Shown piece after piece: positions 53,276 to 64,000 of a stretch of 64,000 nt of DNA. A program made the position numbers and the translations under genes. This DNA is from Eubacteriales bacterium (GTDB taxonomy: Bacteria; Bacillota; Clostridia; Oscillospirales; CAG-382). Below the pieces are notes generated by a model. It was not told where the DNA came from, made no database searches, and was given only the letters and a program-made list of their open reading frames with translations. The stretch spans positions 7,124 to 71,123 of the forward strand of contig JAZKZH010000005.1 of assembly GCA_045612545.1 (NCBI GenBank), written 5' to 3'. Positions within the stretch are counted from its first letter, which is position 1. Each line of letters begins with the position of its first letter.

Positions 53276-54811
53276 TTGAATCCCAAATTGCGAGAAAAAA
53301 CAATGGAATCCCTGTCGGCGGTGCTTCCCATCACGGGTATCGTGCTGTTCATCAGCGTCTTCCTGGTTCCCATGGAAGTGGGTACGGTCATGCTGTTTTT
53401 GGTAGGCGCGGTAATGCTGATCTTGGGTATGGGCTTCTTCCAATTGGGTGCGGAAATGGCCATGACCCCCATCGGTGAGGGTGTCGGCACCCGTGTCTCC
53501 AAGACCCGATGGGTATGGATCGTTGTTCTCATCGGCTTTTTGATGGGCGCCATCATCACCATTTCCGAGCCTGACCTGCAGATATTGGCTCAGCAGGTTC
53601 CCTCGATTCCCAACATGACCTTGATCCTCACGGTGGCCGTGGGCGTGGGTATTTTCCTTGCCCTGGCGGTGATCCGTATCAAGTACCGTATCAGCCTTTC
53701 CAAATTGCTGATCGTTTTGTATCTGGCATTGATCGGACTTTCCTTTTTCGTACCCGGGGAGTTTTTGGCAGTTGCCTTTGACTCCGGCGGCGTTACCACC
53801 GGCCCTATGACCGTGCCCTTTATCATGGCCATGGGTGTGGGTCTTGCCGCTTCCCGTACCGACAAGGATTCTTCCAGCGACAGCTTCGGCTTGGTGGCGC
53901 TGTCCAGCGTTGGCCCTATTCTGGCGGTGCTGATCCTGGGCTGCTTCTTCCGTCCCACAGAGGCGGCGTACACCATCGGCGTCATTCCCGAGGTTCTGAC
54001 CACCCGCGACGTGGTGTCCCTTTTCGCTTACGAGATCCCTGCCTTCGCATGGGAGGTAACCCTTTCCCTGCTGCCCATTGCGGCGGTGTTCCTGCTGTTC
54101 CAGCTTTTGACCCACCATTATCAAAAGCGTGAGATCAAGCGTATTATCATGGGTGTGCTATACACCTATGCGGGGCTTGTGCTGTTCCTGTGCGGTGTAA
54201 ACGTAGGCTTTGCCCCCGTGGGTACCTTCCTGGGCGAAGCGTTGGCTTCCCTTTCCTACAACTGGGTGATCGTCCCCATCGGCATGCTCATCGGCTACTA
54301 CATCGTCAAAGCAGAGCCTGCCATTCAGGTCTTGAACCGTCAGGTAGAGGGCATCACCAACGGCTCCATCTCCGTCAAGGCTATGAACCGCTGTATGTCC
54401 ATCGGCGTGGCCATCAGTATCGGGTTGGCGCTGACCAGAGTGCTTTTGCAGATCCCGATTTATTGGATCATCATCCCCGGTTATCTTATCGCTTTGGTGA
54501 TGTCCCTGTTCGTGCCCAAGATCTTCGTGGGTATCGCTTTTGACTCCGGTGGCGTTGCCAGCGGACCTATGACCTCCACCTTCCTGCTCCCTTTGAGCCT
54601 TGGCACCTGCACTGCCGTGGGCGGAGATCTTATGCAGGACGCCTTCGGCGTGGTGGCTTTGGTTGCCTTGACCCCGCTGGTCGCCATCCAGATCATGGGT
54701 CTGGCTTATCAGTACAAAACTGCCAAGCTGCAGAAGATGTACGCTGTACATCCCGGCATTACCGCAGAAAGCGACAATATCATCGATTTGGAAGAGGAGG
54801 TACTTGCATGA
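53276..54811 (+). CDS. DUF1538-family polytopic membrane protein
   Basis: 511 aa with an internally duplicated architecture. The FDSGGVTTGPMT and FDSGGVASGPMT motifs each occur once per half. Start uncertain (TTG at 53276 or ATG at 53303). Confidence 0.7.
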   Translation: MNPKLREKTMESLSAVLPITGIVLFISVFLVPMEVGTVMLFLVGAVMLILGMGFFQLGAEMAMTPIGEGVGTRVSKTRWVWIVVLIGFLMGAIITISEPDLQILAQQVPSIPNMTLILTVAVGVGIFLALAVIRIKYRISLSKLLIVLYLALIGLSFFVPGEFLAVAFDSGGVTTGPMTVPFIMAMGVGLAASRTDKDSSSDSFGLVALSSVGPILAVLILGCFFRPTEAAYTIGVIPEVLTTRDVVSLFAYEIPAFAWEVTLSLLPIAAVFLLFQLLTHHYQKREIKRIIMGVLYTYAGLVLFLCGVNVGFAPVGTFLGEALASLSYNWVIVPIGMLIGYYIVKAEPAIQVLNRQVEGITNGSISVKAMNRCMSIGVAISIGLALTRVLLQIPIYWIIIPGYLIALVMSLFVPKIFVGIAFDSGGVASGPMTSTFLLPLSLGTCTAVGGDLMQDAFGVVALVALTPLVAIQIMGLAYQYKTAKLQKMYAVHPGITAESDNIIDLEEEVLA

Positions 54812-55497
54812 AAGAAACCAAAAAGCGGGATTCCTACCGTTTGCTCCTGCTCATAGCTAACCAAAAGCTGGCTGAAAAAGCGGCAGAGCTGTTCCTGGAG
54901 CAAAACCTCCCCATCCAATACCGTCTTGGCGCCAAGGGCACTGCCTCCAGCGAGATCATGGATACCCTGGGCTTCGGTAGCGTGGACAAATACATTCTAA
55001 TGGCCATGGTGCCAAAATCCTTCGGCAGCGAGATGCTTGGCCTTTTGCACACAAAGCTCCGTTTGGACGCGGTGAACAGCGGTATCGCCTTCACCATTCC
55101 CCTGACGGGCGTGACCAACCTTATGCTCCGCATGATGCAAAGCGTGGAGCAGCCGGAACAAAATCTTACGGAAAGAACAGGTGAACACATGATGATAGAA
55201 AACGAACATACCTTGATCGCCGCCATCGTTGAACGCGGATTCAGCGGAAACGTGATGGAAGCCGCCAAGGCGGCAGGCGCGGGAGGCGGCACCGTCCTCC
55301 ACGGCAGAAGCGTCGGCAACGAATCCGCCACCGGATTCTGGGGGCAGAGCTTGCAGGAAAAGGACATCGTTCTGATCCTTGCCCCGCTGGAAAGCAAGGT
55401 TGCCATCATGAGCGCCATCAGCGAGAAGTGCGGTATGCACAGCGATGCAAAAGGCACCGTGATCTCCCTGCCCATCGATCAGGTCATGGGAATCTGA
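54808..55497 (+). CDS. tandem P-II-like (GlnB-fold) signal-transduction protein
   Basis: 229 aa. Two about 100-aa halves, each resembling a P-II fold. 4-nt overlap with the DUF1538 gene. Confidence 0.55.
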   Translation: MKETKKRDSYRLLLLIANQKLAEKAAELFLEQNLPIQYRLGAKGTASSEIMDTLGFGSVDKYILMAMVPKSFGSEMLGLLHTKLRLDAVNSGIAFTIPLTGVTNLMLRMMQSVEQPEQNLTERTGEHMMIENEHTLIAAIVERGFSGNVMEAAKAAGAGGGTVLHGRSVGNESATGFWGQSLQEKDIVLILAPLESKVAIMSAISEKCGMHSDAKGTVISLPIDQVMGI

Positions 55498-55638
55498 GAA
55501 GATATGTGTTTTTACGAGCGGAACTCTTTTTGCAGAAAAAGGGTTCCGCTTTTGCTCTCCGGGGAGAAACGCCCTCATCGCCACAACCTTTTCGGGATAT
55601 AAAAAGCAAAAGCGGAGTGAACTCACTCCGCTTAAGTT

Positions 55639-56667
55639 TTATACAATTCCCAATGCAAATTCAACCCCAAGGGCTACAACAACTACAAGCGCCGATATAA
55701 CGAAGCCATGTATCATAGGTTTGATTCCTGATTTTTTCATATCCTTGAATGACGTGTTGAGACCGATTGCGGCCAGGGCGCAAACCATCAAAAATTTACT
55801 GATCTGTTTTGTCCCGGCAACTATTTCGGCAGGGATGGTGAAGATACTTGCTACAATGGACATCGCCAAAAAGCCTAAAATGAACCAGGGGAAGATTTTG
55901 GCAAAGCTAAAATTGGTTTTAATTTCTTTTTCGTTTTCTCCGCTTTTGATGGCTTCTTTTCTTTTGAGGTTCATTTGAATCAAAGCAAAGGTCAAAACGG
56001 TAGGAATAATGGAAAGAGTGCGGGTGAGCTTCACCATGGTGGCAAAATCGCCGGCGGCCTCAGAAAAAGCATAGCCTGTCGCTACCACGGAAGAGGTATC
56101 GTTAACCGCTGTTCCTGCCCAAATGCCAAAAGCTTCGGCGCTCATACCAATCGCTCTACCCATAATCGGGAACAATACGATCATCGCCATATCGAACAGA
56201 AACGTGGCAGACATAGCGTATGCAACGTCACTGTCCTCGGCGTCAATGGTAGGTGCAATCGCAGCGATGGCCGAACCGCCACAGATTCCCGTTCCTGCAG
56301 AAATAAGGTTGGAGAGCTTCCAGTTTAGCCCCAAAGCCTTGCCGATAAAGTAACCCCCGCCGAAACAGGTGGCGAGCGTAAAAATCATAACCACAAGGGA
56401 CATTTTACCAACGTACAAAATTGTGTTGATGTTCAAAGAAAGACCAAGCAGTATAATGGCAAATTTAAGGATTTTCTTCGATGTAAATTTAACACCCGAC
56501 GCAATAAAGCTTTTCTTGCCAATAAAATGATTGACGATCATACCGATAAACATGGCAATGACGGCTCCGCCAATCAAATGAATCGGCAAAAGATTTTCTA
56601 TAAAAGTTGCCACCGCCGCTATTGCAACCGATAAAGCAATACCCGACAAAAATTTTATCGCTTTCAT
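55639..56667 (-). CDS. YeiH/UPF0324-family membrane protein (putative sulfate-exporter family)
   Basis: 342 aa, polytopic, AT-rich codon usage. Confidence 0.7.
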   Translation of the reverse strand: MKAIKFLSGIALSVAIAAVATFIENLLPIHLIGGAVIAMFIGMIVNHFIGKKSFIASGVKFTSKKILKFAIILLGLSLNINTILYVGKMSLVVMIFTLATCFGGGYFIGKALGLNWKLSNLISAGTGICGGSAIAAIAPTIDAEDSDVAYAMSATFLFDMAMIVLFPIMGRAIGMSAEAFGIWAGTAVNDTSSVVATGYAFSEAAGDFATMVKLTRTLSIIPTVLTFALIQMNLKRKEAIKSGENEKEIKTNFSFAKIFPWFILGFLAMSIVASIFTIPAEIVAGTKQISKFLMVCALAAIGLNTSFKDMKKSGIKPMIHGFVISALVVVVALGVEFALGIV

Positions 56668-56839
56668 AAGAAACTCCCAAAATAAATTTTATATATTGTA
56701 TAACAATATTGTATCACAATATTGTATCACGATCGGCATAAAAAGTAAATAGTCACAGTATATTTTTTCTTGCAATAGGATGAGCTTCCCGATTGAGAAA
56801 TTGAAAAAAAGCGAGGGGAAACACCCCTCGCTTGATGTA

Positions 56840-57322
56840 TCACTGCTTTTCCGCATGATGCTTTTCGGCACAACCGTTGCAAATATTGCGATATCTTGTT
56901 CCCATATCATCTTTGATCTTGCAATATACAAGGCGCTCAAAGTGCTTGCCGCACAGTTCGCATTTCAGTCCGTCAGCCTTCTCAACGTCTACCGCCACTT
57001 CTTCCTTTTCCTCGTCTTTTACTTCGGTAGTTGCATTGGAAGTACGAACTTGATTGTCTGTCTTTGCCGCTTCCGGTGCTATCCGGTTGCGGATTGCGTG
57101 CACGTCTTCCACAAGCTCACCGAAGGCATACAAAAACCAAGAAGATACCCAAGCGAAAAGCGGGATCACGATCCATGAAAGGAAACCGTACAGAATCAAA
57201 TCCTCATCGGTTACCATCAAGACAAAACCCGTAATGAGAGCCGCGATTGCCTCGACCACAAAAAGAATCATCGCCAAAAATTTAATTTTGCCGCCAATGT
57301 TTTTAAAGAATTTTTCGCCCAT
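56840..57322 (-). CDS. hypothetical membrane protein with C-terminal zinc-ribbon
   Basis: Start at the internal ATG (MGEKFFKNIGG). Two TM helices, an acidic linker, and CELCG...CNGC. Confidence 0.5.
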   Translation of the reverse strand: MGEKFFKNIGGKIKFLAMILFVVEAIAALITGFVLMVTDEDLILYGFLSWIVIPLFAWVSSWFLYAFGELVEDVHAIRNRIAPEAAKTDNQVRTSNATTEVKDEEKEEVAVDVEKADGLKCELCGKHFERLVYCKIKDDMGTRYRNICNGCAEKHHAEKQ

Positions 57323-57472
57323 ATACAAAGCCTCCGAAACGTTTTTTCTTTTATTGTAGCACGCAAAAAATAAAATGCAAGACTTTTTGACAAAAAAACA
57401 CGCAACTATTGACTTCCCGGACATCGCGTGCTATAATTTACCCGTAATTTCACCATTTCCAGGAGGCTTCTT

Positions 57473-58306
57473 ATGGAAGAAAAAAATGGCAAAACCGAAA
57501 CTTCGTTCTTCAAGAAAAACTTTAACTATCCCATTTTGCTCTTTGCTTTGATCTCCCTAACCAACATCTCCAGCATTTACAATTCCATAATCGGCATTTT
57601 CAAATATCCCGGCGCCATTGTTAGCATACTTGCAAATCTTATCTTATACGTAACCCCCATTGCCATCGCAGTGTTTTTGTGGTTGTACAAAAATAAGGGG
57701 TTCGAGAAAGCTTCTATCGCCATTGCTGCGGTTTTGTCTGCCGCAACACTGCTGACAGCATACAGTTGGATCCGAACGGTCATAAATAGCTTCTCCTATC
57801 TCTCTTTTGATATTGAGTTTGTCATCGGGCCGTTGCCCAATCTGTTGGGAACACTTTTCTACATTATTATTTGCGCTATCTTGGTATTCAATTTGTTTGC
57901 CAATCGTAAAAACTACGGTGCATTTTATGTGTTGCTGGTTTTGTTCATTGTAGAACTGTGCTTCTTCGGACTCTTAAGAACTTACGCTGCAGTTTTGGAC
58001 ATGGGTTCCGCAAGCTCCGCATTCTCTTGCTTCTTTGACGTATTGCTCGCGTTGGCCATTTGGTATATTCCCGGCGCCATCAACAATCCTCCCGCCGCAG
58101 AATTGTCCACCGGAAAGGCAAAAGCCTTGGCCATGATTGCTGCTGTGGTAGTCGGCCTCTATTTCATTGCTTCGGCAGCAGCAGGCGGCCCCTCCGGCGG
58201 CAGCGATAGCTACTGGGACGATTACGACGATAACCATGACGGAAAAATCGATGACAACGAATTCGGCGACGGATGGAAGGATTATGTGGACGATTTCCTG
58301 AACTAA
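57473..58306 (+). CDS. hypothetical polytopic membrane protein with C-terminal EF-hand-like loop
   Basis: 277 aa with about 7 TM helices. The C-terminal DDNHDGKIDDNE matches the canonical 12-residue EF-hand loop. Confidence 0.55.
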   Translation: MEEKNGKTETSFFKKNFNYPILLFALISLTNISSIYNSIIGIFKYPGAIVSILANLILYVTPIAIAVFLWLYKNKGFEKASIAIAAVLSAATLLTAYSWIRTVINSFSYLSFDIEFVIGPLPNLLGTLFYIIICAILVFNLFANRKNYGAFYVLLVLFIVELCFFGLLRTYAAVLDMGSASSAFSCFFDVLLALAIWYIPGAINNPPAAELSTGKAKALAMIAAVVVGLYFIASAAAGGPSGGSDSYWDDYDDNHDGKIDDNEFGDGWKDYVDDFLN

Positions 58307-58331
58307 CGCTCGTCTAAAAATTCATCTCAAC

Positions 58332-58602
58332 ACAAAAGTATAAATCTCCTTGTTTTACAGATACTATTATCAGCAACTGTAAAGCAAGGAGATTTTATAT
58401 ATGAAAGCAACAGGAATCGTTAGAAGAATCGACGACCTGGGTCGCGTCGTTATCCCCAAGGAGATCCGCCGCATCTTGCGAATCCGTGAGGGAGAGCCCT
58501 TACTGACAATATTGACACTTTTCGACAAGTTTTGTTTAGCGATACATAGTGTGGTAGAAAGATATAATGAGCAGAGAAATTAAACTCTCTGCTCGTTTTT
58601 TT
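58332..58602 (+). repeat. spoVT-5' module A (hairpin, RBS, 60-aa ORF, terminator)
   Basis: Homologous over its full length to 59908-60173. Homologous over the RBS plus the first 99 coding nt to spoVT at 60963-61094. Confidence 0.9.
58401..58583 (+). CDS. 60-aa SpoVT/AbrB N-terminal-like protein (short paralog A)
   Basis: The first 33 residues match SpoVT (one substitution, S25I). Then a novel 27-aa tail that is 15/27 identical to paralog B. Own stop codon inside the terminator hairpin. Confidence 0.5.
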   Translation: MKATGIVRRIDDLGRVVIPKEIRRILRIREGEPLLTILTLFDKFCLAIHSVVERYNEQRN

Positions 58603-58867
58603 GTAAGATGTTGACTTTTTATATCTTTTGTGATAAAATAATTATGCCAAACTAATTGAATAAAATCAGACAAGAGCTTTTTATATTTAAGGCTCTATTT
58701 GTGCATCCTATTATCATAAGGTGAATTTGATAAAAACGCAAATCTCCCCTTGTGATAACTTGATGTATGTTCTTGTCTTATCCAATTAGTTTGGCGACTA
58801 TTGGAGTTTGCGTTTTTTGTGCGGTTACTTCGGTAGTCGCACTTTTTATTTTACGGAGGAAAAGAAA

Positions 58868-59842
58868 ATGAAAAAAGCAATTAGTTTATTGTTGGCGGTA
58901 ATGCTGGTTTTGTCTCTTTCTGCTTGTGGTGGTAACGAGACTACCCACACCCATAGTTATTCTGATGCAACTTGTGCTGCACCAGCAAAATGTTCTTGCG
59001 GTGCAACCAATGGTAGCGCTTTAGGACATAGTTATAGTAATGCTACTTGCACCGAGGCTAAAAAGTGTTCTCGTTGTGGTGCAACCAATGGTAGTGCGCT
59101 TGGTCACAGTTATAAAGATGCAACTTGCACAGAACCCAAGACTTGTACCAAGTGCGGCGCAACCAATGGCAGTGCGCTTGGTCACAGTTATAAAGATGCA
59201 ACTTGCACAGAACCCAAGACTTGTACCAAGTGCGGTGCAACTAGTGGTAATGCTTTGGGGCATAAGGAAGTGGTTGATAAAGCTGTGTCTGCAACATGTA
59301 CTAAAGCTGGACTTTCAGAGGGTAAGCATTGTTCGACTTGCAATACGGTTATAGTCGCTCAAGAAACTATCCCTGCAACACATCAATATGCCGATGCAAC
59401 CTGTACCGAACCACAGAAATGCAAACTTTGTGGTTCAACTTATGGGACTCATAATGGTCATGACTTTTCTCGAAGCAACTCCTGTTCTTCTTGCGGAATG
59501 TGGTTAAGCGACCTTTTTGATATTACTTATTCTAGTGGAAGTTACAACCGAGGAGATAGAAATTCTGATTTTGCATCTATTTCAATAACAAGTTGTTCTC
59601 AAAAATATTACAGTTACAACAATTCTGTTACCTTAACTATTAAAGCGACTGGTAAAATGATTTATACATGGTCATATATGAGACCTGGTGTTGTTTCGTA
59701 TCAGATTGGTTTATACAAAGATGGTGTTTTATATGCGACTAGTAGTACGGGATATGTGAATTGTCAAAAAGGAGAAACTGATTCAGAAACTTTTTACATA
59801 TACGATGTAGAACCAGGAACATATACTATAAAAATACTTTAA
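58868..59842 (+). CDS. lipoprotein with tandem 26-aa Cys-rich repeats (cassette 1 cargo)
   Basis: Start at MKKAISLLLAVMLVLSLSAC. Four or more repeats of GHSY-x-DATCTEPKTCTKCGATNGSAL. AT-rich. Confidence 0.75.
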   Translation: MKKAISLLLAVMLVLSLSACGGNETTHTHSYSDATCAAPAKCSCGATNGSALGHSYSNATCTEAKKCSRCGATNGSALGHSYKDATCTEPKTCTKCGATNGSALGHSYKDATCTEPKTCTKCGATSGNALGHKEVVDKAVSATCTKAGLSEGKHCSTCNTVIVAQETIPATHQYADATCTEPQKCKLCGSTYGTHNGHDFSRSNSCSSCGMWLSDLFDITYSSGSYNRGDRNSDFASISITSCSQKYYSYNNSVTLTIKATGKMIYTWSYMRPGVVSYQIGLYKDGVLYATSSTGYVNCQKGETDSETFYIYDVEPGTYTIKIL

Positions 59843-59907
59843 CTATCCAAAACACAATAATTAAGGAAAAGTTTATGCTAACATAACGACTTTATCAAAT
59901 ATAATTT

Positions 59908-60173
59908 ACAAAGTATAAATCTCCTTGTTTTACAGATACTATTATCAGCAACTGTAAAGCAAGGAGAATTTATATATGAAAGCAACAGGAATAGTTAGAA
60001 GAATCGACGATCTGGGTCGCGTCGTTATCCCCAAGGAGATCCGCCGCAGCTTGCGGATCCGTGAAGGCGAGCCTTCTCATACCTCATTGACACCTTTTGG
60101 TAAGTTTTGTATTTCGATACATAGTGTTTTGAAACGATATAAAGAACAAGCGAGGTGAAATCACCTCGCTTTT
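59908..60173 (+). repeat. spoVT-5' module B (hairpin, RBS, 60-aa ORF, terminator)
   Basis: See module A. The terminator AGCGAGGTGA/TCACCTCGCT is bidirectional. Confidence 0.9.
59976..60158 (+). CDS. 60-aa SpoVT/AbrB N-terminal-like protein (short paralog B)
   Basis: The first 33 residues are identical to SpoVT; all 9 differing codons are synonymous. Its tail is homologous to the tail of paralog A. Confidence 0.5.
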   Translation: MKATGIVRRIDDLGRVVIPKEIRRSLRIREGEPSHTSLTPFGKFCISIHSVLKRYKEQAR

Positions 60174-60178
60174 GAAGT

Positions 60179-60871
60179 TTATTTATTGTAGTGCATATAC
60201 AAATTAGCAAGTGTATGGTTCATAGCTTTGAGTTTATCAAGTTCGCAATTCATATATGACCATTCATATGCTTTTTTTGAAAAACCCATTATTTCTAAAT
60301 GCTTATATGAACGATAAAAATCATATTCGCTTTCAGAAATAGCAGTAATATTTTTTATTTGATTATCTTCAAATTTAGCAATAAAACCATGAACAATAAC
60401 ACGATTGTCATCTCGCATAAATCCAAGCACATAATATGATTTTGTAACCCTGTCAAACTCTATATGGTTCACCATCATATCTTCACCTAACAAAACTTGA
60501 TTGGCAAGAGAAAAATCAGTTGTATCATAAACCGATATAGCAGAGTGCAAACCATCTTTTTGACGTTCTACATTGAAAAACAATTTTCCGTCGGGAGAAA
60601 AACAAAAACCATCGTCTTGTGCTCCGTCAACCTTTGAGAAACGGAACTTTTTAATTAAAGACAATGTTTCCAGAGAATATATCGCAAGTCTGCCATCTGT
60701 AGATTTGACGACAAATAATGTTCCATCTGGCGAAATCATAGGCGTATAACCGTAAATTATATCTTTGAATTTGCCTAACTCATTACCGTCCTTATCATAT
60801 AAAAATACAGTTTGTCCTGTACAACCAACAGAAAAGTCGTTATTGGATACATAGCCCCAAAACTTTCTCAT
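60179..60871 (-). CDS. hypothetical protein with SPDG-type beta-propeller-like repeats (cassette 2 cargo)
   Basis: 230 aa. Repeated ISPDG/FSPDG-K-LF motifs. No signal peptide. AT-rich. Confidence 0.6.
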   Translation of the reverse strand: MRKFWGYVSNNDFSVGCTGQTVFLYDKDGNELGKFKDIIYGYTPMISPDGTLFVVKSTDGRLAIYSLETLSLIKKFRFSKVDGAQDDGFCFSPDGKLFFNVERQKDGLHSAISVYDTTDFSLANQVLLGEDMMVNHIEFDRVTKSYYVLGFMRDDNRVIVHGFIAKFEDNQIKNITAISESEYDFYRSYKHLEIMGFSKKAYEWSYMNCELDKLKAMNHTLANLYMHYNK

Positions 60872-60995
60872 ATAATCACCGCCTTTATTTTATTGTATCA
60901 CACTTTTTCCACAAAGTAAATAGGTATAGTATAATCCCCCACTTTTTGCAAATAATAACACCACAAATGTAAAAGCAAGGAGATTATTATATATT

Positions 60996-61532
60996 ATGAA
61001 AGCAACAGGCATTGTACGCCGCATCGACGACCTGGGTCGCGTCGTTATCCCCAAGGAAATCCGCCGCAGCTTGCGAATCCGTGAAGGCGAGCCGCTGGAG
61101 ATCTTTACCAACGAGGAGGGGGGCGTGGTGTTCCGCAAGTACTCCCCCATCGGCGAGGCGGGAAGCTTTGCGGGAGAATACGCAGAGGCGATCTACAAAT
61201 CCGCGGGAATCGCGGTAGCGGTGTGTGACATGGACGGCGTGATCGCAGTGGCAGGCGCGCCAAAGAAGGATTACCTTTCCCATCCGCTGACCCCTTCCCT
61301 CGCCGCCTTGCTGGAGGGGCGCAGACCTTATTCCGCCACGGCGGACGGCACCCCCATCCGCGCCACGGAGCAGGCAAACGAGCTGGTTTCCTACTTTGCT
61401 CCCATCATTAGCGAGGGAAATCCCGCAGGGGGCGTGATGATGCTTTCCAAGGACACCGCCTCTCTCGATGAGACGGCGAAAAAGCTGGTGAACACGGGAG
61501 CAATGTTTCTGTCCTCGCAGATGCAGATATGA
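60996..61532 (+). CDS. spoVT: stage V sporulation protein T (AbrB-type N-domain plus GAF-like C-domain)
   Basis: 178 aa. MKATGIVRRIDDLGRVVIPKEIRRSLRIREGEPLEIF swapped-hairpin domain plus a SpoVT-type C-terminal domain. GC-rich host codon usage. Confidence 0.9.
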   Translation: MKATGIVRRIDDLGRVVIPKEIRRSLRIREGEPLEIFTNEEGGVVFRKYSPIGEAGSFAGEYAEAIYKSAGIAVAVCDMDGVIAVAGAPKKDYLSHPLTPSLAALLEGRRPYSATADGTPIRATEQANELVSYFAPIISEGNPAGGVMMLSKDTASLDETAKKLVNTGAMFLSSQMQI

Positions 61533-61569
61533 TAGCAAAAAGGACTTCACAGCGAAGTCCTTTCGTATT

Positions 61570-62178
61570 TTAGCGACTGTATCCGCACGCGGTGCAGACA
61601 CCGTTTTTGTAGGTATGGCTCTTGGTCTTGCCAATGGTGTAATTGCAGGAATCGCACACCCTTTGGTGGCCGTCCGAGGTAGAGGCATAGGTCTGGTAGG
61701 GGTGCAGGAAGAGGTAATCCCAAAGCTTATTCATATCCACGTAGCGGAACACGGTTTTCTCCGGCAAGGTCAGCGAGGTGACCTCGTAGACACCCACAGT
61801 GTTGTTCGGCCCCATGCAGGCAAAGAACATCACGTGGGCGTTGTCCCCGGGCTTTAAGAAGACGTCCATCTCCTTCATATCGTAGACGGATTTCACCTGA
61901 TGACCGTACTTGGTGAGATGGTAGGGCGCGGACCAATGGTAAGGCTCGTCGGTACCCGACCCACTATCCACAAATTCCCAAGCGGCGCAGACAAAGGCGG
62001 AGCAATCCAGCCCCACGGTGTAGGGCTGATGCCCCACGTCGGGGTTGACGTTACCGGTGGTGTAATAGGAGCTTGTGCCAATGGTTGCCACCGCAACGTT
62101 GGCAAAGCTGTCCTTGCCGTAATAGGAATGGGGGTTAAAGCCGCCGCGGCAATAGGGAATACCGGTATAGGATACCAT
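61570..62178 (-). CDS. NlpC/P60-like cysteine peptidase domain protein, leaderless
   Basis: 202 aa. GIPYCRGG and GLDCSAFV catalytic-Cys motifs. C-terminal H-TY-x-x-G-x-CTACG motif. No signal peptide and a weak RBS, so it may be a remnant. Confidence 0.5.
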   Translation of the reverse strand: MVSYTGIPYCRGGFNPHSYYGKDSFANVAVATIGTSSYYTTGNVNPDVGHQPYTVGLDCSAFVCAAWEFVDSGSGTDEPYHWSAPYHLTKYGHQVKSVYDMKEMDVFLKPGDNAHVMFFACMGPNNTVGVYEVTSLTLPEKTVFRYVDMNKLWDYLFLHPYQTYASTSDGHQRVCDSCNYTIGKTKSHTYKNGVCTACGYSR

Positions 62179-62261
62179 AAGTCCGTGCTTTTAGCAACTC
62201 GCAAAACCGCAAAAAATGTCGGAACGCTTTTGGGCATTCCGACAAAATTGTAAAAGCAACC

Positions 62262-63005
62262 TTATGAAACCGTGAAGTCTTTCAGTGCCTCTATCATCCA
62301 GGCTTTATCCGAATCGGAATAATAGAAATGCCCCGCTTCATGAGAAATGCGGATCTCCACGTTTTCCTGCGCTGTCAGGTACTTTTCCGACCGCAGAGAA
62401 ACCAGCTCATCCTTCGCACCCAGAAACACCTTGCAGGGAACGGAGATGGGATTTTTGCGCCTGCGGGCGCGGCGGCAAAGCAAAAGCAACTCCAGGAATC
62501 GCGGGATCCATCCTGCATACTTCACAAGCGTTGAGGTCAGCTCCACGCCGATGCTTTCTTGGCAGGCCGTTTCGTGAGGCTGCTCCCGATCCACCCTGCC
62601 CTTGGCAAAACGGTAGGAACGCTTTGCCATCTCCCACCGTACCCACGGGCGGAAGGGCGGGTTCAACAGCAACAATCCCTTGATTTTGGGGTGGGCTTCC
62701 AAGGCCTCCAGCGCCAAAAGCGTACCCATGGAATATCCCACGATGTAGATCTCTCGGTGATCCGCCTCCAATGCGGTCAAGGCATTCTCCACGTCGGCCC
62801 TCCATTTCTTCATGGAGGCGTTGGTGAAGTCCTTCACCGTCCCTCCGTGACCCTCCAGCAGCAGGGCGTGTACCGTCACCTCCCCGGGCAGGGAGGACAC
62901 CAAAAAATCAAAATGACGGGGCGTGGAGCAGATGCCGTGGATCATCAGCACCGCTTTTTCACGGGTGGGAGAGATATGCAAATAGGGGGCGTGTTTTTCC
63001 TTCAT
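62262..63005 (-). CDS. alpha/beta-fold hydrolase (esterase/lipase-like)
   Basis: Start at MKEKHAPYLH. HG oxyanion motif (LMIHG). GYSMG nucleophile elbow. Confidence 0.8.
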   Translation of the reverse strand: MKEKHAPYLHISPTREKAVLMIHGICSTPRHFDFLVSSLPGEVTVHALLLEGHGGTVKDFTNASMKKWRADVENALTALEADHREIYIVGYSMGTLLALEALEAHPKIKGLLLLNPPFRPWVRWEMAKRSYRFAKGRVDREQPHETACQESIGVELTSTLVKYAGWIPRFLELLLLCRRARRRKNPISVPCKVFLGAKDELVSLRSEKYLTAQENVEIRISHEAGHFYYSDSDKAWMIEALKDFTVS

Positions 63006-63009
63006 AGCG

Positions 63010-63972
63010 TCAAAACTCCGATTTCTGGCTCCGTGCAAACAGAGCGTTCAGCTCCTCCGCAGGGTCGCCATGGAGGTACAGCAGACGGTACACCGCCTGG
63101 CAGATGGGCAGCTCCACGCCGTGGGCTTCCGAGAGCTTCATCAACGCGGCAACGGTGTAGTATCCCTCCGCCAAACGGTCAAAGCTTTCGCCCTTGATAA
63201 AGCACTCCCCGAAACGGCGGTTATGGCTGTGGGGAGAGAACAGGGTGGCCTCGTAGTCCCCCAAATGGCAAAGGCCGTAGGCAGAATGCGCCTGCCCTCC
63301 CATGGCGTGGATCAGGCGGGCGACCTCCGTGGTACCGCGGGACATCAAAGCTCCCTTGAGGGAGGAAAGTCCCCGCCCGTCCAGCATTCCCGCGGCGATG
63401 CCCACCACGTTTTTGGCGGCGGCGCCGATCTCGTTGCCAATCAGGTCGGTACCGTAGTAGAAGCGGATCAGATCCCCGGAAAAGTGACGGATCAGCTCAT
63501 CCCGCAAAACGGTGCTTTCGCTGTCGATGACCATACAGTTGGGCTGTCCCCGATAGAAGTCCTGCACGTGTCCCGGCCCCAGCCATACGGCGATGGGTTC
63601 CTTGCGGAACTCCGAGGCAACCTGGGAAAGCCGCTTCCCCGTGGAGATCTCGATGCCCTTCATGCACAGCACGAAGACACGGTTCCCCGCAGGATATACC
63701 GCCAGCTCCTCCATCAGCCCACGAAGCTGTTGACTGCCCACGGAAATGATGACGATGTCGCGCTCCATCACCTCAGACAAGGAGGAGGTAAGAGCCACCG
63801 TCTTCGGCAGGGTGAGGAAATCGTTCCGCCCCTCCTCCTTGAAGCGGGCAAAGGCGGCGGAGGATTCCCGCCCGTACAGGCATACCTCATGCCCCAGACG
63901 GTCTAAATACCATGCGATCAACGACCCCCATCTGCCGCAACCGATGACGGCAACTCTCTTGCGCTCTGCCAT
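63010..63972 (-). CDS. gpsA: NAD(P)H-dependent glycerol-3-phosphate dehydrogenase
   Basis: 320 aa. VAVIGCGRWGS Rossmann motif and GpsA-like C-terminal domain. Confidence 0.9.
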   Translation of the reverse strand: MAERKRVAVIGCGRWGSLIAWYLDRLGHEVCLYGRESSAAFARFKEEGRNDFLTLPKTVALTSSLSEVMERDIVIISVGSQQLRGLMEELAVYPAGNRVFVLCMKGIEISTGKRLSQVASEFRKEPIAVWLGPGHVQDFYRGQPNCMVIDSESTVLRDELIRHFSGDLIRFYYGTDLIGNEIGAAAKNVVGIAAGMLDGRGLSSLKGALMSRGTTEVARLIHAMGGQAHSAYGLCHLGDYEATLFSPHSHNRRFGECFIKGESFDRLAEGYYTVAALMKLSEAHGVELPICQAVYRLLYLHGDPAEELNALFARSQKSEF

Positions 63973-64000
63973 AGAAAGATTCCTTTCTGCTTTTTATGGG

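What the first reader, a model, noticed from the sequence alone, without database searches (positions are those of the whole stretch)
58401..60158. The two 60-aa SpoVT-N-like ORFs look selected, not decayed; they may modulate SpoVT/AbrB-type dimers
Codon-by-codon comparison of the first 33 codons gives a clear pattern. Paralog B differs from spoVT in 9 codons, all synonymous. Paralog A differs from spoVT in 10 codons, 9 of them synonymous and 1 not (S25I).

The two novel tails have the same length and stay in frame. They share 15/27 residues (T-x-L-T-x-F-x-KFC-x-x-IHSV-x-x-RY-x-EQ). The tails include synonymous differences (AGA/CGA, GTG/GTT, GAG/GAA, CAG/CAA). Decaying gene fragments would not be expected to show this.

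AbrB/SpoVT/MazE N-domains are obligate swapped-hairpin dimers of roughly 50 residues. A 60-aa protein with an identical first half could therefore heterodimerise with SpoVT, or bind its operators. It could act as a forespore-specific modulator or decoy.
Basis: partly seen in the sequence, partly recalled or inferred. Interest (0 to 1): 0.65.

Follow-up and report, generated by a model that had tools for sequence, protein, structure and literature searches.

The report
Repeated spoVT 5' stubs bounding gene cassettes
The two 60-codon reading frames are real and belong to a widespread repeat family, but they look like boundary modules of a horizontally exchanged gene-cassette array attached to the start of the sporulation gene spoVT, not proven regulators of SpoVT.

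Summary
ORF A (58401-58583) and ORF B (59976-60158) share codons 1-33 with spoVT (60996-61532), differing by 9 synonymous plus 1 non-synonymous codon and by 9 plus 0. Their tails share 15/27 residues.

The tail is not private to this genome. About 130 copies occur in about 89 species of ruminant-gut Oscillospirales, always in direct arrays upstream of spoVT with variable cargo genes between them.

Each unit consists of a forespore-type promoter, a hairpin that sequesters the ribosome-binding site, spoVT codons 1-33, a 66-nt tail and a terminator.

Evidence against selection on the protein:
- only 59 of 83 full units have an intact ORF;
- 47 tails have no N-terminal part, yet are equally conserved (pN/pS 0.52 against 0.53);
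- 39 related units are clearly non-coding;
- 18 of 45 loci show no intact copy;
- AlphaFold gives pLDDT 65.6 and does not complete the AbrB fold.

Cargo flanked by these units is 95-100% identical between species whose spoVT genes are about 60% identical. Breakpoints lie at variable positions in the repeats, and no recombinase gene lies nearby.

Best reading (0.55): homologous-recombination cassette boundaries. A functional microprotein remains possible (about 0.25).

The parts
56739..56790 (+). Remnant of a spoVT-type promoter. It probably marks the decayed left-most unit and the left edge of the cassette array.
   Evidence: Direct repeat D9: 56742-56762 against 60913-60933, 86% identity. Reading the sequence shows AAAGTAAATAG..AGTATA followed by a TTGCAA..-like -10 region. 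The YeiH-family gene to its left (55639-56667) is 79% identical to L021, where a full unit starts directly after it.
56806..56833 (.). Terminator hairpin AAGCGAGGGG..CCCCTCGCTT, of the same type as the hairpins that follow the tails elsewhere. It lies next to the promoter remnant.
   Evidence: Terminator scan. Similar to the AGCGAGGTGAA.TCACCTCGCT hairpins that follow tails in many loci.
56840..58306 (.). Cargo of cassette 0. It holds a 194-aa ORF (56840-57424, minus strand) and a 277-aa membrane protein (57473-58306, plus strand).
   Evidence: ORF list. No significant Pfam or NCBIfam family. GC 37-48%.
58338..58400 (+). Promoter and leader of unit A. The -35 element GTATA is at 58338-58342, followed by a 17-nt spacer and the -10 element GATACTA at 58360-58366 (a forespore sigmaF/G-like pattern, assigned from memory). 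SD AAGGAGA is at 58386-58392. The inverted repeat 58342-58365 / 58372-58395 pairs the promoter spacer with the SD.
   Evidence: Inverted repeat I4. This leader folds at -27.3 kcal/mol. Across 72 non-redundant units the mean z-score is -4.5, GGAG is paired in 70/72, and the arm sequences differ between promoter variants.
58401..58499 (+). ORF A codons 1-33: a copy of the spoVT 5' coding segment.
   Evidence: 94% and 90% identity within direct-repeat family D2. 9 synonymous and 1 non-synonymous difference from spoVT. Identical to B. subtilis SpoVT (PDB 2RO5, 2W1T) over residues 1-34 apart from two positions, I25 (T in SpoVT) and E32 (D in SpoVT).
58500..58583 (+). ORF A tail, codons 34-60 plus the stop. 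The family-wide conserved part is 58500-58565, with consensus ..ACAACATTGACACCTTTCGACAAGTTTTGYNNNGCNATACATAGTGTGGTGGARAGATAT.
   Evidence: Protein alignment A2; stack of DNA copies; entropy by codon position. There is no homology to the rest of spoVT or to any larger protein family.
58566..58597 (+). Intrinsic terminator of unit A. It overlaps the last codons of ORF A.
   Evidence: Terminator scan: 12-bp stem followed by TTTTTTT.
58611..59842 (+). Cargo of cassette 1. It has its own sigma70-like promoter (58611-58639), an insert flanked by inverted repeats (58646-58795), and a lipoprotein gene (58868-59842) with Cys-rich repeats of 78 nt.
   Evidence: (I5, D3, D4).
59913..59975 (+). Promoter and leader of unit B (-35 at 59913-59917, -10 at 59935-59941), with the same SD-sequestering hairpin as unit A.
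   Evidence: 65/70 nt identical to the unit A leader.
59976..60074 (+). ORF B codons 1-33: a copy of the spoVT 5' coding segment.
   Evidence: 9 synonymous and 0 non-synonymous differences from spoVT.
60075..60158 (+). ORF B tail. It is a diverged member of the tail family (GKFCISIHSVLKRYKEQAR).
   Evidence: nhmmer match over profile positions 10-243. It did not match the back-translated search pattern, so it is an unbiased member of the family.
60148..60171 (.). Hairpin AAGCGAGGTGAAATCACCTCGCTT. The stop codon of ORF B lies in its loop. It acts as a two-way terminator and also ends the minus-strand cargo gene.
   Evidence: The same hairpin family follows tails in many species.
60179..60871 (-). 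Cargo of cassette 2: a 230-aa protein resembling a beta-propeller.
   Evidence: Weak Pfam matches to WD40/propeller families. Homologous cargo sits next to spoVT in L028, L056 and L084, at about 70% identity to the window. Between L028 and L084 this cargo is 95.5% identical, although their spoVT genes are only 60.5% identical.
60929..61532 (+). The functional spoVT gene. Its promoter (-35 at 60929-33, -10 at 60951-57) has a weaker version of the same leader hairpin. The coding sequence is 60996-61532.
   Evidence: Pfam MazE_antitoxin + SpoVT_C. NCBIfam spore_V_T at 205.9 bits. Leader fold of -13.2 kcal/mol.

Best explanation
ORF A and ORF B are the coding-looking parts of a repeated boundary module, which I call a T unit. 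Each unit consists of:
- a forespore-type promoter;
- a hairpin that pairs the ribosome-binding site with the promoter spacer;
- spoVT codons 1-33;
- a 66-nt conserved tail;
- an intrinsic terminator.

In ruminant-gut Oscillospirales (Acutalibacteraceae, Oscillospiraceae, Ruminococcus) these units form direct arrays immediately upstream of spoVT. They separate small cargo cassettes: lipoproteins, Fic proteins, propeller-like proteins, and AAA/helicase and WYL genes. The window holds three such cassettes between about 56.74 and 60.93 kb.

Most likely mechanism (inferred, not shown): the extremely conserved spoVT 5' segment, together with the tail and terminator, serves as portable homology.
- Recombination between repeats within a genome duplicates, deletes and gene-converts units.
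- Recombination between incoming DNA and resident repeats swaps or adds cassettes across species.

On this view the 60-aa reading frames are by-products.
- Their N-terminal halves look 'purified' because they are copies of, and are repeatedly converted by, a functional spoVT.
- Their tails are conserved as part of the exchanged module.

The leader hairpin and the terminators insulate spoVT and the cargo from each other's transcription.
For: Shown by tool results:

(a) Family and arrangement. A tail pattern search found 89 loci, of which 3 are chance matches. nhmmer found 220 unit matches, all on the same strand as spoVT, with spoVT always last in the array.

(b) The intact ORF is not the conserved feature. 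The census is 59 intact T units, 24 broken T units, 47 tails without an N-terminal part and 39 non-coding 'S' units. S units consist of the promoter, 11 codons, a hairpin-rich sequence and a terminator. 18 of 45 loci with spoVT in view have no intact copy.

(c) Orphan tails are as conserved as translated ones. pN/pS is 0.52 against 0.53, with the same residue spectrum at codons 41, 46 and 52.

(d) Synonymous sites are much less diverged in the tail (pS 0.33-0.41) than in codons 1-33 (0.73-0.76). ACA-TTG-ACA at codons 37-39 is invariant at the third position.

(e) Horizontal exchange. Segments of 0.8-1.4 kb are 95-100% identical between loci whose spoVT genes are 59-61% identical: L028/L084, L016/L076 and L058/L082.

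(f) Breakpoints fall inside the repeats at variable unit coordinates: 2, 31, 48, 63-66, 70, 80, 95-106, 156, 180-195 and 225-248. Homologous recombination predicts this; a fixed-site recombinase does not.

(g) Gene conversion within genomes. Identity to the genome's own spoVT is raised only for codons 12 and above. L008 T against V is 96% identical. In the window, codons 10-33 are nearly identical to spoVT.

(h) No recombinase gene appears within 6-10 kb of the units in the contexts inspected. The tail is absent from IMG/VR and from GenBank phages.

(i) The window island has low GC and a decayed unit at its left edge.
Against: - The tail keeps a coding-like signature. Third-position entropy is about twice that of positions 1 and 2. 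pN/pS is 0.4-0.5, well below 1. Codon 46 is always hydrophobic although it uses six different codons. F44, C45, H49 and R54 are invariant in the 33-sequence alignment A2.
- 59 of 83 full units are intact, and their promoters and SD sequences are as well kept as those of spoVT.
- AlphaFold gives the tail an amphipathic helix at pLDDT 71-77.
- Why a bare homology arm should stay 80-90% identical across families is not explained. Homologous recombination across about 80%-identical 99-nt arms should be inefficient.
- No insertion or deletion polymorphism within one species, and no circular intermediate, was observed. The metagenome contigs were too fragmented to show either.
- Most loci were found with a back-translated tail pattern, which biases codons 43-51. 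Analyses were repeated on codons outside the pattern and on 41 copies not found by the pattern.
Confidence: 0.55

Rival explanations
1. The T units encode real forespore-expressed microproteins. Each would have the SpoVT beta1-beta2-alpha1 half-domain fused to a conserved amphipathic helix carrying a C-x3-H pair. Such a protein could pair with SpoVT/AbrB-type N-domains as a SinI-like antagonist or decoy. Alternatively, the tail could be selected to make the displaced SpoVT fragment harmless.
For: - 59 intact copies, each with its own promoter and SD.
- pN/pS of 0.4-0.5 and three-base periodicity in the tail.
- Hydrophobic residues kept at positions 41, 44, 46, 48 and 52, and K/R at 43, through different codons.
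- Invariant F44, C45, H49 and R54 in A2.
- The tail is predicted as a helix at pLDDT 71-77.
- Residues 1-34 match the solved SpoVT N-domain, differing only at positions 25 and 32.
Against: - The same signatures appear in 47 tails that have no start codon or N-terminal half.
- 29% of full units are broken, and 40% of loci with spoVT in view have no intact copy.
- About a third of intact copies carry changes at SpoVT-invariant residues, including P19, G14, D12 and R29.
- Junction insertions are in frame in only 1 of 5 cases.
- C45 is replaced by A in one subfamily.
- Only 28 of 48 Pfam domain positions are present, and the model lacks beta3-beta4, with pTM 0.34.
- Synonymous sites in the tail are also conserved.
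Confidence: 0.25
2. The units are attachment sites of a site-specific recombination system, like a cis-mobilisable element, SCC or integron. A recombinase encoded elsewhere in the genome would insert circular cassettes into the 5' end of spoVT. The tail would be the conserved recombinase-binding arm. Each insertion would leave the old 5' end as a stub.
For: - Direct repeats that include the end of the target gene flank every cassette, in tandem arrays.
- A full unit is about 240 bp, the size of a complex attP-type site (the size comparison is from memory).
- The tail is conserved at the nucleotide level, as element ends are.
- Cassettes move between distant species.
- A small GC-rich insert recurs at the N-terminal/tail junction in several loci, and there is a recurrent discontinuity at codons 10-12.
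Against: - No integrase, resolvase or transposase domain among the called genes within 6-10 kb of the units in the contexts inspected.
- Breakpoints of recently exchanged segments are spread over the unit and do not fall at one point.
- No inverted-repeat core or stable hairpin in the tail (z about 0).
- The tail is absent from viral and phage collections.
- The left edges of orphan tails vary between profile positions 147 and 197.
Confidence: 0.12
3. The units act as RNA. Short forespore transcripts of about 250 nt would carry the spoVT leader and first 99 nt. They could titrate or mimic a regulator of spoVT mRNA, or produce antisense or decoy effects. The tail would be an RNA motif.
For: - Each unit is a compact promoter-to-terminator transcription unit.
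- The non-coding S units keep the same promoter, start and terminator, and have hairpins that differ in sequence between variants.
- The tail is conserved at synonymous sites.
Against: - RNAalifold finds no conserved structure in the transcript (-0.15 kcal/mol), and the tail folds no better than shuffled sequence (z = 0.16).
- No Rfam family matches.
- Orphan tails have lost the promoter and leader.
- No expression data exist.
Confidence: 0.08

Closest known systems
Orphan-module arrays of polymorphic toxin loci (Rhs and CdiA-CT 'orphan' cassettes). From my own knowledge; not tested here.
   Same: - A short conserved segment of the main gene is repeated in front of each cassette.
- Arrays of direct repeats lie next to the main gene.
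- Cassettes are exchanged between genomes by recombination in the conserved segment.
- Displaced fragments are left behind.
   Different: - There the 3' tip of the main gene is swapped and the protein changes. Here the repeat is the 5' end plus the promoter, and the body of spoVT is untouched.
- The cargo is unrelated to spoVT.
- Every unit here carries its own promoter, an SD-sequestering hairpin and a terminator.
Tandem integrative-element arrays at a gene end, such as SCC elements at the 3' end of rlmH/orfX and cis-mobilisable elements (CIMEs) left by ICE accretion. From my own knowledge.
   Same: - Cassettes without their own recombinase, bounded by direct repeats that contain the end of a conserved gene.
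- Tandem accretion.
- Transfer between species.
   Different: - Those repeats are short att sites (about 15-30 bp) cut at a fixed point by a known recombinase (Ccr or Int).
- Here the repeats are 170-240 bp, no recombinase is nearby, and breakpoints vary.
SinI/SinR-type and other truncated-paralog antagonists ('microproteins'), and the AbrB antirepressor AbbA (bioRxiv 10.1101/2024.08.12.607668).
   Same: A small protein that shares part of a regulator's oligomerisation domain could form inactive heteromers. The N-terminal 34 residues match those of SpoVT except at positions 25 and 32.
   Different: - Only about 60% of the swapped-hairpin domain is present.
- Copies are frequently broken or absent.
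- AbbA is a DNA mimic unrelated in sequence.
- No interaction has been tested.
Fold-back inhibition of IS10/IS50 transposase mRNAs. From my own knowledge.
   Same: A hairpin pairs the ribosome-binding site with sequence that lies upstream of the gene's own transcription start. Only transcripts reading in from outside are blocked, so the gene is insulated from its neighbours.
   Different: Here it guards a sporulation regulator and its stubs, not a transposase. It has not been shown experimentally.

Membership tests
AbrB/MazE/SpoVT swapped-hairpin DNA-binding domain (Pfam PF04014; NCBIfam TIGR01439) | Score above the curated threshold for the family | tested here: met
   PF04014 scores 28.5 and 28.6 bits against a cutoff of 24.7. 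TIGR01439 scores 33.6 and 34.0 against 28.3.
AbrB/MazE/SpoVT swapped-hairpin DNA-binding domain (Pfam PF04014; NCBIfam TIGR01439) | Complete domain: beta1-beta2-alpha1-beta3-beta4, about 45-55 residues | tested here: not met
   Only profile positions 1-28 of 48 (ORF A) and 1-26 of 48 (ORF B) are matched, and 2-29 of 44 in TIGR01439. The alignment to the solved 55-residue SpoVT N-domain ends at residue 34-38. The AlphaFold model has a helix in place of beta3-beta4.
SpoVT (NCBIfam TIGR02851 equivalog) | N-terminal AbrB-like domain plus C-terminal GAF-like SpoVT_C domain, scoring above the equivalog cutoff | tested here: not met
   65.3 and 64.1 bits against a cutoff of 235.9, covering profile positions 1-34 only, with no SpoVT_C. 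The neighbouring 178-aa gene has both domains and scores 205.9 bits, which is also below the 235.9 cutoff.
Truncated-paralog antagonist (SinI-like microprotein) | Maintained as an intact gene under purifying selection wherever it occurs | tested here: not met
   24 of 83 full units are broken. 18 of 45 loci have no intact copy in view. pN/pS in the tail is the same in untranslatable orphans.
Truncated-paralog antagonist (SinI-like microprotein) | Physical heteromer with the target regulator | not testable with these tools
   Only monomer prediction was available. Multimer prediction, two-hybrid or pull-down assays are needed.
Site-specific integrative cassette arrays (att-flanked; CIME/SCC-like) | Direct repeats containing the end of the target gene flank each cassette | tested here: met
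   Arrays run T/S/orphan ... V on one strand, with spoVT last.
Site-specific integrative cassette arrays (att-flanked; CIME/SCC-like) | A cognate recombinase and a fixed crossover position | tested here: not met
   No recombinase domain within 6-10 kb of the units in the contexts inspected. Breakpoints are spread across the unit. A recombinase acting in trans from elsewhere in the genome could not be excluded.
Integron | IntI integrase, an attI site, and attC sites that fold into imperfect hairpins | tested here: not met
   No integrase nearby. The tail folds no better than shuffled sequence (z = 0.16). Cargo genes lie in both orientations and have their own promoters.
Recombination hot spot with repeated conserved-gene segments (orphan-module type) | Cassettes shared between distant genomes, with breakpoints inside the conserved repeats | tested here: met
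   Cargo is 95-100% identical between genomes whose spoVT genes are 57-61% identical. Identity drops to the baseline of 0.75-0.8 inside the N-terminal repeat.
Known RNA families (Rfam 15) | Match to a covariance model | tested here: not met
   No match in window 54000-64000 at E of 1 or below. Only one chance-level match turned up in eight related loci.

The most novel reading that the evidence does not exclude
Ruminant-gut Clostridia may carry a previously undescribed, recombinase-free cassette system that docks on the 5' end of the sporulation regulator spoVT.

Each cassette would bring its own forespore promoter and a translation-insulating hairpin, and would leave behind a promoter-bearing stub. 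The conserved 22-27-residue tail would be selected as a peptide, giving an amphipathic C-x3-H helix fused to half of the SpoVT DNA-binding domain. That peptide would either neutralise the displaced fragment or tune SpoVT activity in the forespore.

Mobile DNA would then be wired directly into spore-maturation control.
Probability: 0.2. Interest if true: 0.75.

Novelty: new variant of a known kind. Interest (0 to 1): 0.5.

Why it matters
If the reading is right, the start of a core sporulation gene serves as a shared docking site for accessory genes across many uncultured gut Clostridia. Those accessory genes include surface proteins, Fic proteins and defence-like ATPase/helicase genes. The docking appears to work through repeats of the gene's own promoter and first 33 codons, with no visible recombinase.

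This has three consequences:
- It is a caution for annotation. These stubs are currently named 'AbrB/MazE/SpoVT family protein' or even 'stage V sporulation protein T'.
- It is a caution against reading synonymous-only differences as proof that a duplicated fragment is under selection.
- It offers testable cases of promoter insulation by fold-back hairpins and of cassette exchange between species driven by homology.

If instead the microprotein reading is right, it would be a new class of SpoVT/AbrB modulator carried by mobile DNA.

Tried and rejected
- Phage or ICE attP origin. The tail pattern gave 0 hits in IMG/VR. Against GenBank phages only the AbrB-like N-terminal part matched.
- Known RNA family. 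Rfam found nothing.
- Conserved RNA structure in the transcript or tail. RNAalifold gave -0.15 kcal/mol and the tail z-score was 0.16.
- Tail as a frameshifted or diverged piece of spoVT itself. The local alignment score was no better than for shuffled sequence.
- Tail as the C-terminus of some larger protein family. phmmer of residues 31-60 against 1.84 billion representatives gave 10 hits. The eight retrieved are short ORFs with decayed SpoVT N-termini.
- Strain-level presence or absence of cassettes from public runs. Logan contigs were too fragmented. They showed only that the unit sequences are highly repeated in bovine gut metagenomes: depth about 640-710 over the unit regions against about 30-40 over cargo 2.
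- Other contigs encoding the window's exact SpoVT. None are on record.
- RNAalifold on a MAFFT alignment of leaders. It predicted no pairs, probably because the right arms of different promoter variants are out of register. Folding each sequence on its own was used instead.
- A sigma70 promoter inside the tail. Only a weak 9/12 match was found.
- Literature searches for truncated SpoVT paralogs or a spoVT-linked hot spot. Nothing relevant was found.
Full report
**1. The observation**

- ORF A, 58401-58583 (60 aa);
- ORF B, 59976-60158 (60 aa);
- a complete spoVT, 60996-61532 (178 aa; MazE_antitoxin + SpoVT_C; NCBIfam spore_V_T at 205.9 bits).

The codon-by-codon counts are exactly as reported. 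A differs from spoVT in 9 synonymous codons and 1 non-synonymous one (S25I). B differs in 9 synonymous codons and none non-synonymous. The tails share 15/27 residues: 9 identical codons, 6 synonymous and 12 non-synonymous, with 54/81 nt identical. The simple NG86 ratio for the two tails is pN/pS = 0.44.

- The A/B repeat is 239 nt long (58335-58573 against 59910-60148, 88%). It includes about 66 nt of near-identical upstream sequence.
- Five of the nine synonymous differences from spoVT sit in codons 5-9, while codons 10-33 are almost identical to spoVT.
- Each ORF runs into an intrinsic-terminator hairpin.
- Everything from about 56.4 to 60.95 kb is 30-45% GC, inside a region of 52-63% GC.

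**2. The ORFs belong to a large family**

A protein search with ORF A returned more than 120 clusters of 55-97-aa proteins that are 81-91% identical over at least 90% of the query. Sources name a few of them 'AbrB/MazE/SpoVT family' or 'stage V sporulation protein T'. The alignment is conserved up to about residue 55 (..LTxFDKFCxAIHSVVERY) and then breaks into variable C-termini.

A back-translated tail pattern found 89 stretches in the one-genome-per-species collection. Three are chance matches. The rest are MAGs of Acutalibacteraceae, Oscillospiraceae, Ruminococcus and 'Clostridia bacterium' from yak, cattle, deer, goat and buffalo guts. The window sequence itself is found in bovine and other gut metagenomes.

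**3. Anatomy of the locus in other genomes**

I built a nucleotide profile of the whole unit: positions 1-74 for the promoter and leader, 75-173 for codons 1-33, and 174-243 for the tail. It gave 220 matches in 92 loci plus the window. All matches in a locus lie on one strand, and the true spoVT is always the last element.

Four kinds of element occur:
- full 'T' units: 59 with an intact ORF, and 24 with a lost start codon, a frameshift, a stop or a 5' truncation;
- 47 'orphan' tails with no spoVT codons in front of them. They are preceded instead by a divergent Fic-gene promoter, by AT-rich or GC-rich hairpin elements, or by decayed N-terminal sequence;
- 39 'S' units, which have the same promoter and the first 11 codons, then a hairpin-rich sequence of 40-170 nt full of stop codons, then the same kind of terminator;
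- the true spoVT.

Arrays hold 1-5 such elements. The cargo between them is 0.3-3 kb or more and lies in either orientation. It includes lipoproteins, Fic/DUF6788 proteins, propeller-like proteins, a STAS-like protein, DUF4116, VWA/SLH surface proteins, and WYL and AAA-ATPase/SNF2-helicase genes.

In the window, a remnant of a spoVT-type promoter lies at 56739-56790, followed by a unit-type terminator at 56806-56833. It sits just right of a YeiH-family gene. That gene is 79% identical to L021, where a full unit follows directly. The window array therefore most probably holds three cassettes:
- 56840-58306;
- 58584-59909;
- 60172-60928.

**4. Is the 60-aa protein the selected feature?**

Several results argue that it is not.

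(a) Only 59 of the 169 non-spoVT elements carry the intact ORF. 18 of 45 loci with spoVT in view have no intact copy.

(b) About a third of the intact copies have substitutions at residues that are invariant in SpoVT: P19 to L, S, Q or T, along with G14, D12, R29, E21 and G5.

(c) The contrast between the two halves of the ORF is strong.
- Codons 2-33 have entropies of 0.31, 0.05 and 1.33 at positions 1, 2 and 3, so synonymous sites are saturated.
- Tail codons 34-55 have 0.37, 0.28 and 0.69. Four-fold sites such as the ACA codons 37 and 39, and TTG at codon 38, are invariant.
- Family-wide pS is 0.33-0.41 in the tail against 0.73-0.76 in codons 1-33.

(d) The residual coding-like pattern of the tail does not depend on whether the tail can be translated.
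- pN/pS is 0.53 (codons outside my search pattern) or 0.39 (all tail codons) for tails with an N-terminal part. For orphans it is 0.52 or 0.40.
- Codon 46 encodes I, W, L, V, M or F in 76/76 tails with an N-terminal part and in 49/50 orphans.
- The entropy profiles are alike in copies found by the pattern and in copies that were not.

(e) Insertions at the junction between the N-terminal part and the tail keep the frame in only one of five cases.

(f) Only 26-28 of 48 Pfam positions of the swapped-hairpin domain are present. The alignment to the solved SpoVT N-domain (2RO5, 55 residues) stops at residue 34-38. The AlphaFold monomer model has mean pLDDT 65.6 and pTM 0.34. It makes the tail a helix (residues 40-59, pLDDT 71-77) and does not supply beta3-beta4.

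Points that still favour a protein:
- most full units are intact;
- the tail has three-base periodicity and pN/pS below 1;
- hydrophobic positions are kept through different codons;
- F44, C45, H49 and R54 are invariant in the 33-sequence alignment.

I therefore keep the microprotein reading as a live rival at about 0.25.

**5. Why codons 1-33 look 'purified'**

Third-position identity between a mini-ORF and the spoVT of its own genome is 0.55-0.65 for codons 12 and above. Against the spoVT of other genomes it is about 0.3. For codons 1-10 and the promoter there is no such excess. In L008 the mini-ORF and its spoVT are 96% identical over the 99 nt. In the window, codons 10-33 are almost identical.

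This is concerted evolution with a gene that is itself under very strong purifying selection. pN/pS is 0.08 for spoVT and 0.105 for the minis. Synonymous-only differences are therefore expected, and they say nothing about selection on the stubs.

**6. Cassettes move between species**

An all-against-all comparison of the loci found 27 segments of 0.3-7.6 kb at 88-98% identity between different species representatives. For the pairs in which both spoVT genes are in view, spoVT identity is only 59-61% (L028/L084, L016/L076, L058/L082) or 80% (L025/L084).

Sliding-window identity shows what the recently shared pieces contain. They are 95-100% identical from the tail or terminator, through the cargo, to the next unit's promoter and leader, up to about the start codon. 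Identity then falls to the general baseline of 0.75-0.8 inside the N-terminal repeat.

Segment ends map to many unit coordinates: 2, 31, 48, 63-66, 70, 80, 95-106, 156, 180-195 and 225-248.

No integrase, resolvase or transposase domain is recorded within 6-10 kb of the units in the contexts inspected. The tail is absent from IMG/VR and from GenBank phages.

Three features together fit homologous recombination and gene conversion between the repeats better than a fixed-site recombinase: variable breakpoints inside conserved repeats, the lack of a local recombinase, and conversion within genomes. This step is inferred. I saw no polymorphism within a species and no circular form, because the public contigs were too fragmented.

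**7. What remains unexplained**

I cannot say why the tail itself stays 80-90% identical across bacterial families.
- It has no conserved RNA structure.
- It matches no Rfam family.
- It is not derived from spoVT.
- It has no relative among 1.84 billion protein representatives other than the stubs themselves.

Three candidates remain:
- selection at the level of the cassette lineage for a shared homology arm;
- weak selection on the peptide, for example to make the displaced half-domain harmless;
- binding of an unknown protein.

The recurrent discontinuity at codons 10-12 is also unexplained. It marks the S-unit breakpoint, the edge of the conversion tract, and the truncation in L082.

**8. 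A by-product finding: the leader hairpin**

In true spoVT genes, T units and S units alike, the spacer of the forespore-type promoter is complementary to the Shine-Dalgarno region. The promoter has a -35 GTATA, 17 nt, and a -10 [G/A]ATA[C/A]TA; its assignment to sigmaF/G is from my memory of the B. subtilis consensus.

Across 72 non-redundant leaders the mean folding energy is -16.9 kcal/mol, with a z-score of -4.5 against shuffles. GGAG is paired at 3-4 of its 4 bases in 70/72. The arms differ in sequence between promoter variants yet stay complementary.

The left arm lies upstream of the predicted transcription start. The hairpin can therefore form only in transcripts that read in from upstream, as in fold-back inhibition of IS10. 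This is a plausible insulator for a regulator that sits behind a changing array of foreign genes.

**9. Comparison with known systems, and verdict**

The arrangement works most like the orphan-module arrays of Rhs and CDI loci, and like the recombinase-less cassettes in SCC or CIME arrays. It differs from them in four ways:
- it duplicates a promoter plus the 5' end of a regulator;
- it leaves the main gene's product unchanged;
- it carries insulating hairpins and terminators;
- it shows no fixed crossover point.

It fails the membership tests for a complete AbrB domain, for SpoVT, for integrons and for att/recombinase elements.

I found no paper describing it. I rate it a new variant of a known kind, with interest 0.5.

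Noticed in passing
window 58338-58400, 59913-59975, 60929-60995; also 72 units in L001-L091: The spacer of the spoVT-type promoter is complementary to the Shine-Dalgarno region and to the bases up to the start codon. The arms differ between promoter variants yet stay complementary. Mean MFE is -16.9 kcal/mol, z = -4.5, and GGAG is paired in 70/72. The hairpin would block translation only of transcripts that read in from upstream.
   Followed up: partly
L004 6606-6850, L007 399-640, L011 1345-1600, L079 5035-4800 and 7220-7000, and about 30 more: 'S' units carry the spoVT promoter and 11 codons, then a conserved nested-hairpin sequence (..GAGGAATGCGTTATAATAGGGCAAACC...GGTTTGCCCCATTGAACGCATT..TATACATAGC), then a terminator. 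They are non-coding, their stems differ in sequence between variants, and they have no Rfam match. None occurs in the window.
   Followed up: partly
window 58646-58795 and 58776-59009: A segment of about 122 nt, flanked by 25-nt inverted repeats, lies in the leader of the lipoprotein gene. Contigs from other samples skip 58662-58784. The stretch 58776-59009 has depth above 2000 in one bovine run, against about 30-40 over cargo 2 (60180-60881). This suggests a small repeated (MITE-like) element.
   Followed up: no
window 58952-59412: The lipoprotein cargo gene holds 3-5 tandem copies of a 75-78-nt (26-aa) Cys-rich repeat (GHSYxDATCTEPKxCxKCGATNGSAL).
   Followed up: no
L081 1410-1650 and 2458-2690; L003 about 742-803; L034, L018, L037 and L064 next to units: GC-rich elements made of several hairpins sit at or next to unit junctions. 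One is about 230 nt long and directly precedes orphan tails. Another is a GC-rich insert of about 60 nt (18 codons in L003) that sits exactly at the N-terminal/tail junction. The array seems to attract small repeats.
   Followed up: no
L019 2838-3776, L094-L099, L016-L018, L071, L074, L076, L087, L089: A Fic/DUF6788 gene (312 aa, minus strand) is the most widely shared cargo. Its upstream region abuts an orphan tail at ..TGTCAAGAATTATTC|ATTGACACC, which forms an inverted repeat with the TTGACA of the tail.
   Followed up: partly
L101 9765-14849 and 4879-5862: Some arrays carry larger, defence-like cargo: a 669-aa AAA ATPase with a 1153-aa SNF2/ResIII helicase (DUF8437), and a WYL-domain protein further upstream.
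   Followed up: no
window 58308-58541 and 59946-60179 in runs X1-X4: The unit sequences have 15-20 times the contig depth of cargo 2 (60180-60881) in bovine gut metagenomes, so the unit is highly repeated across the community.
   Followed up: no
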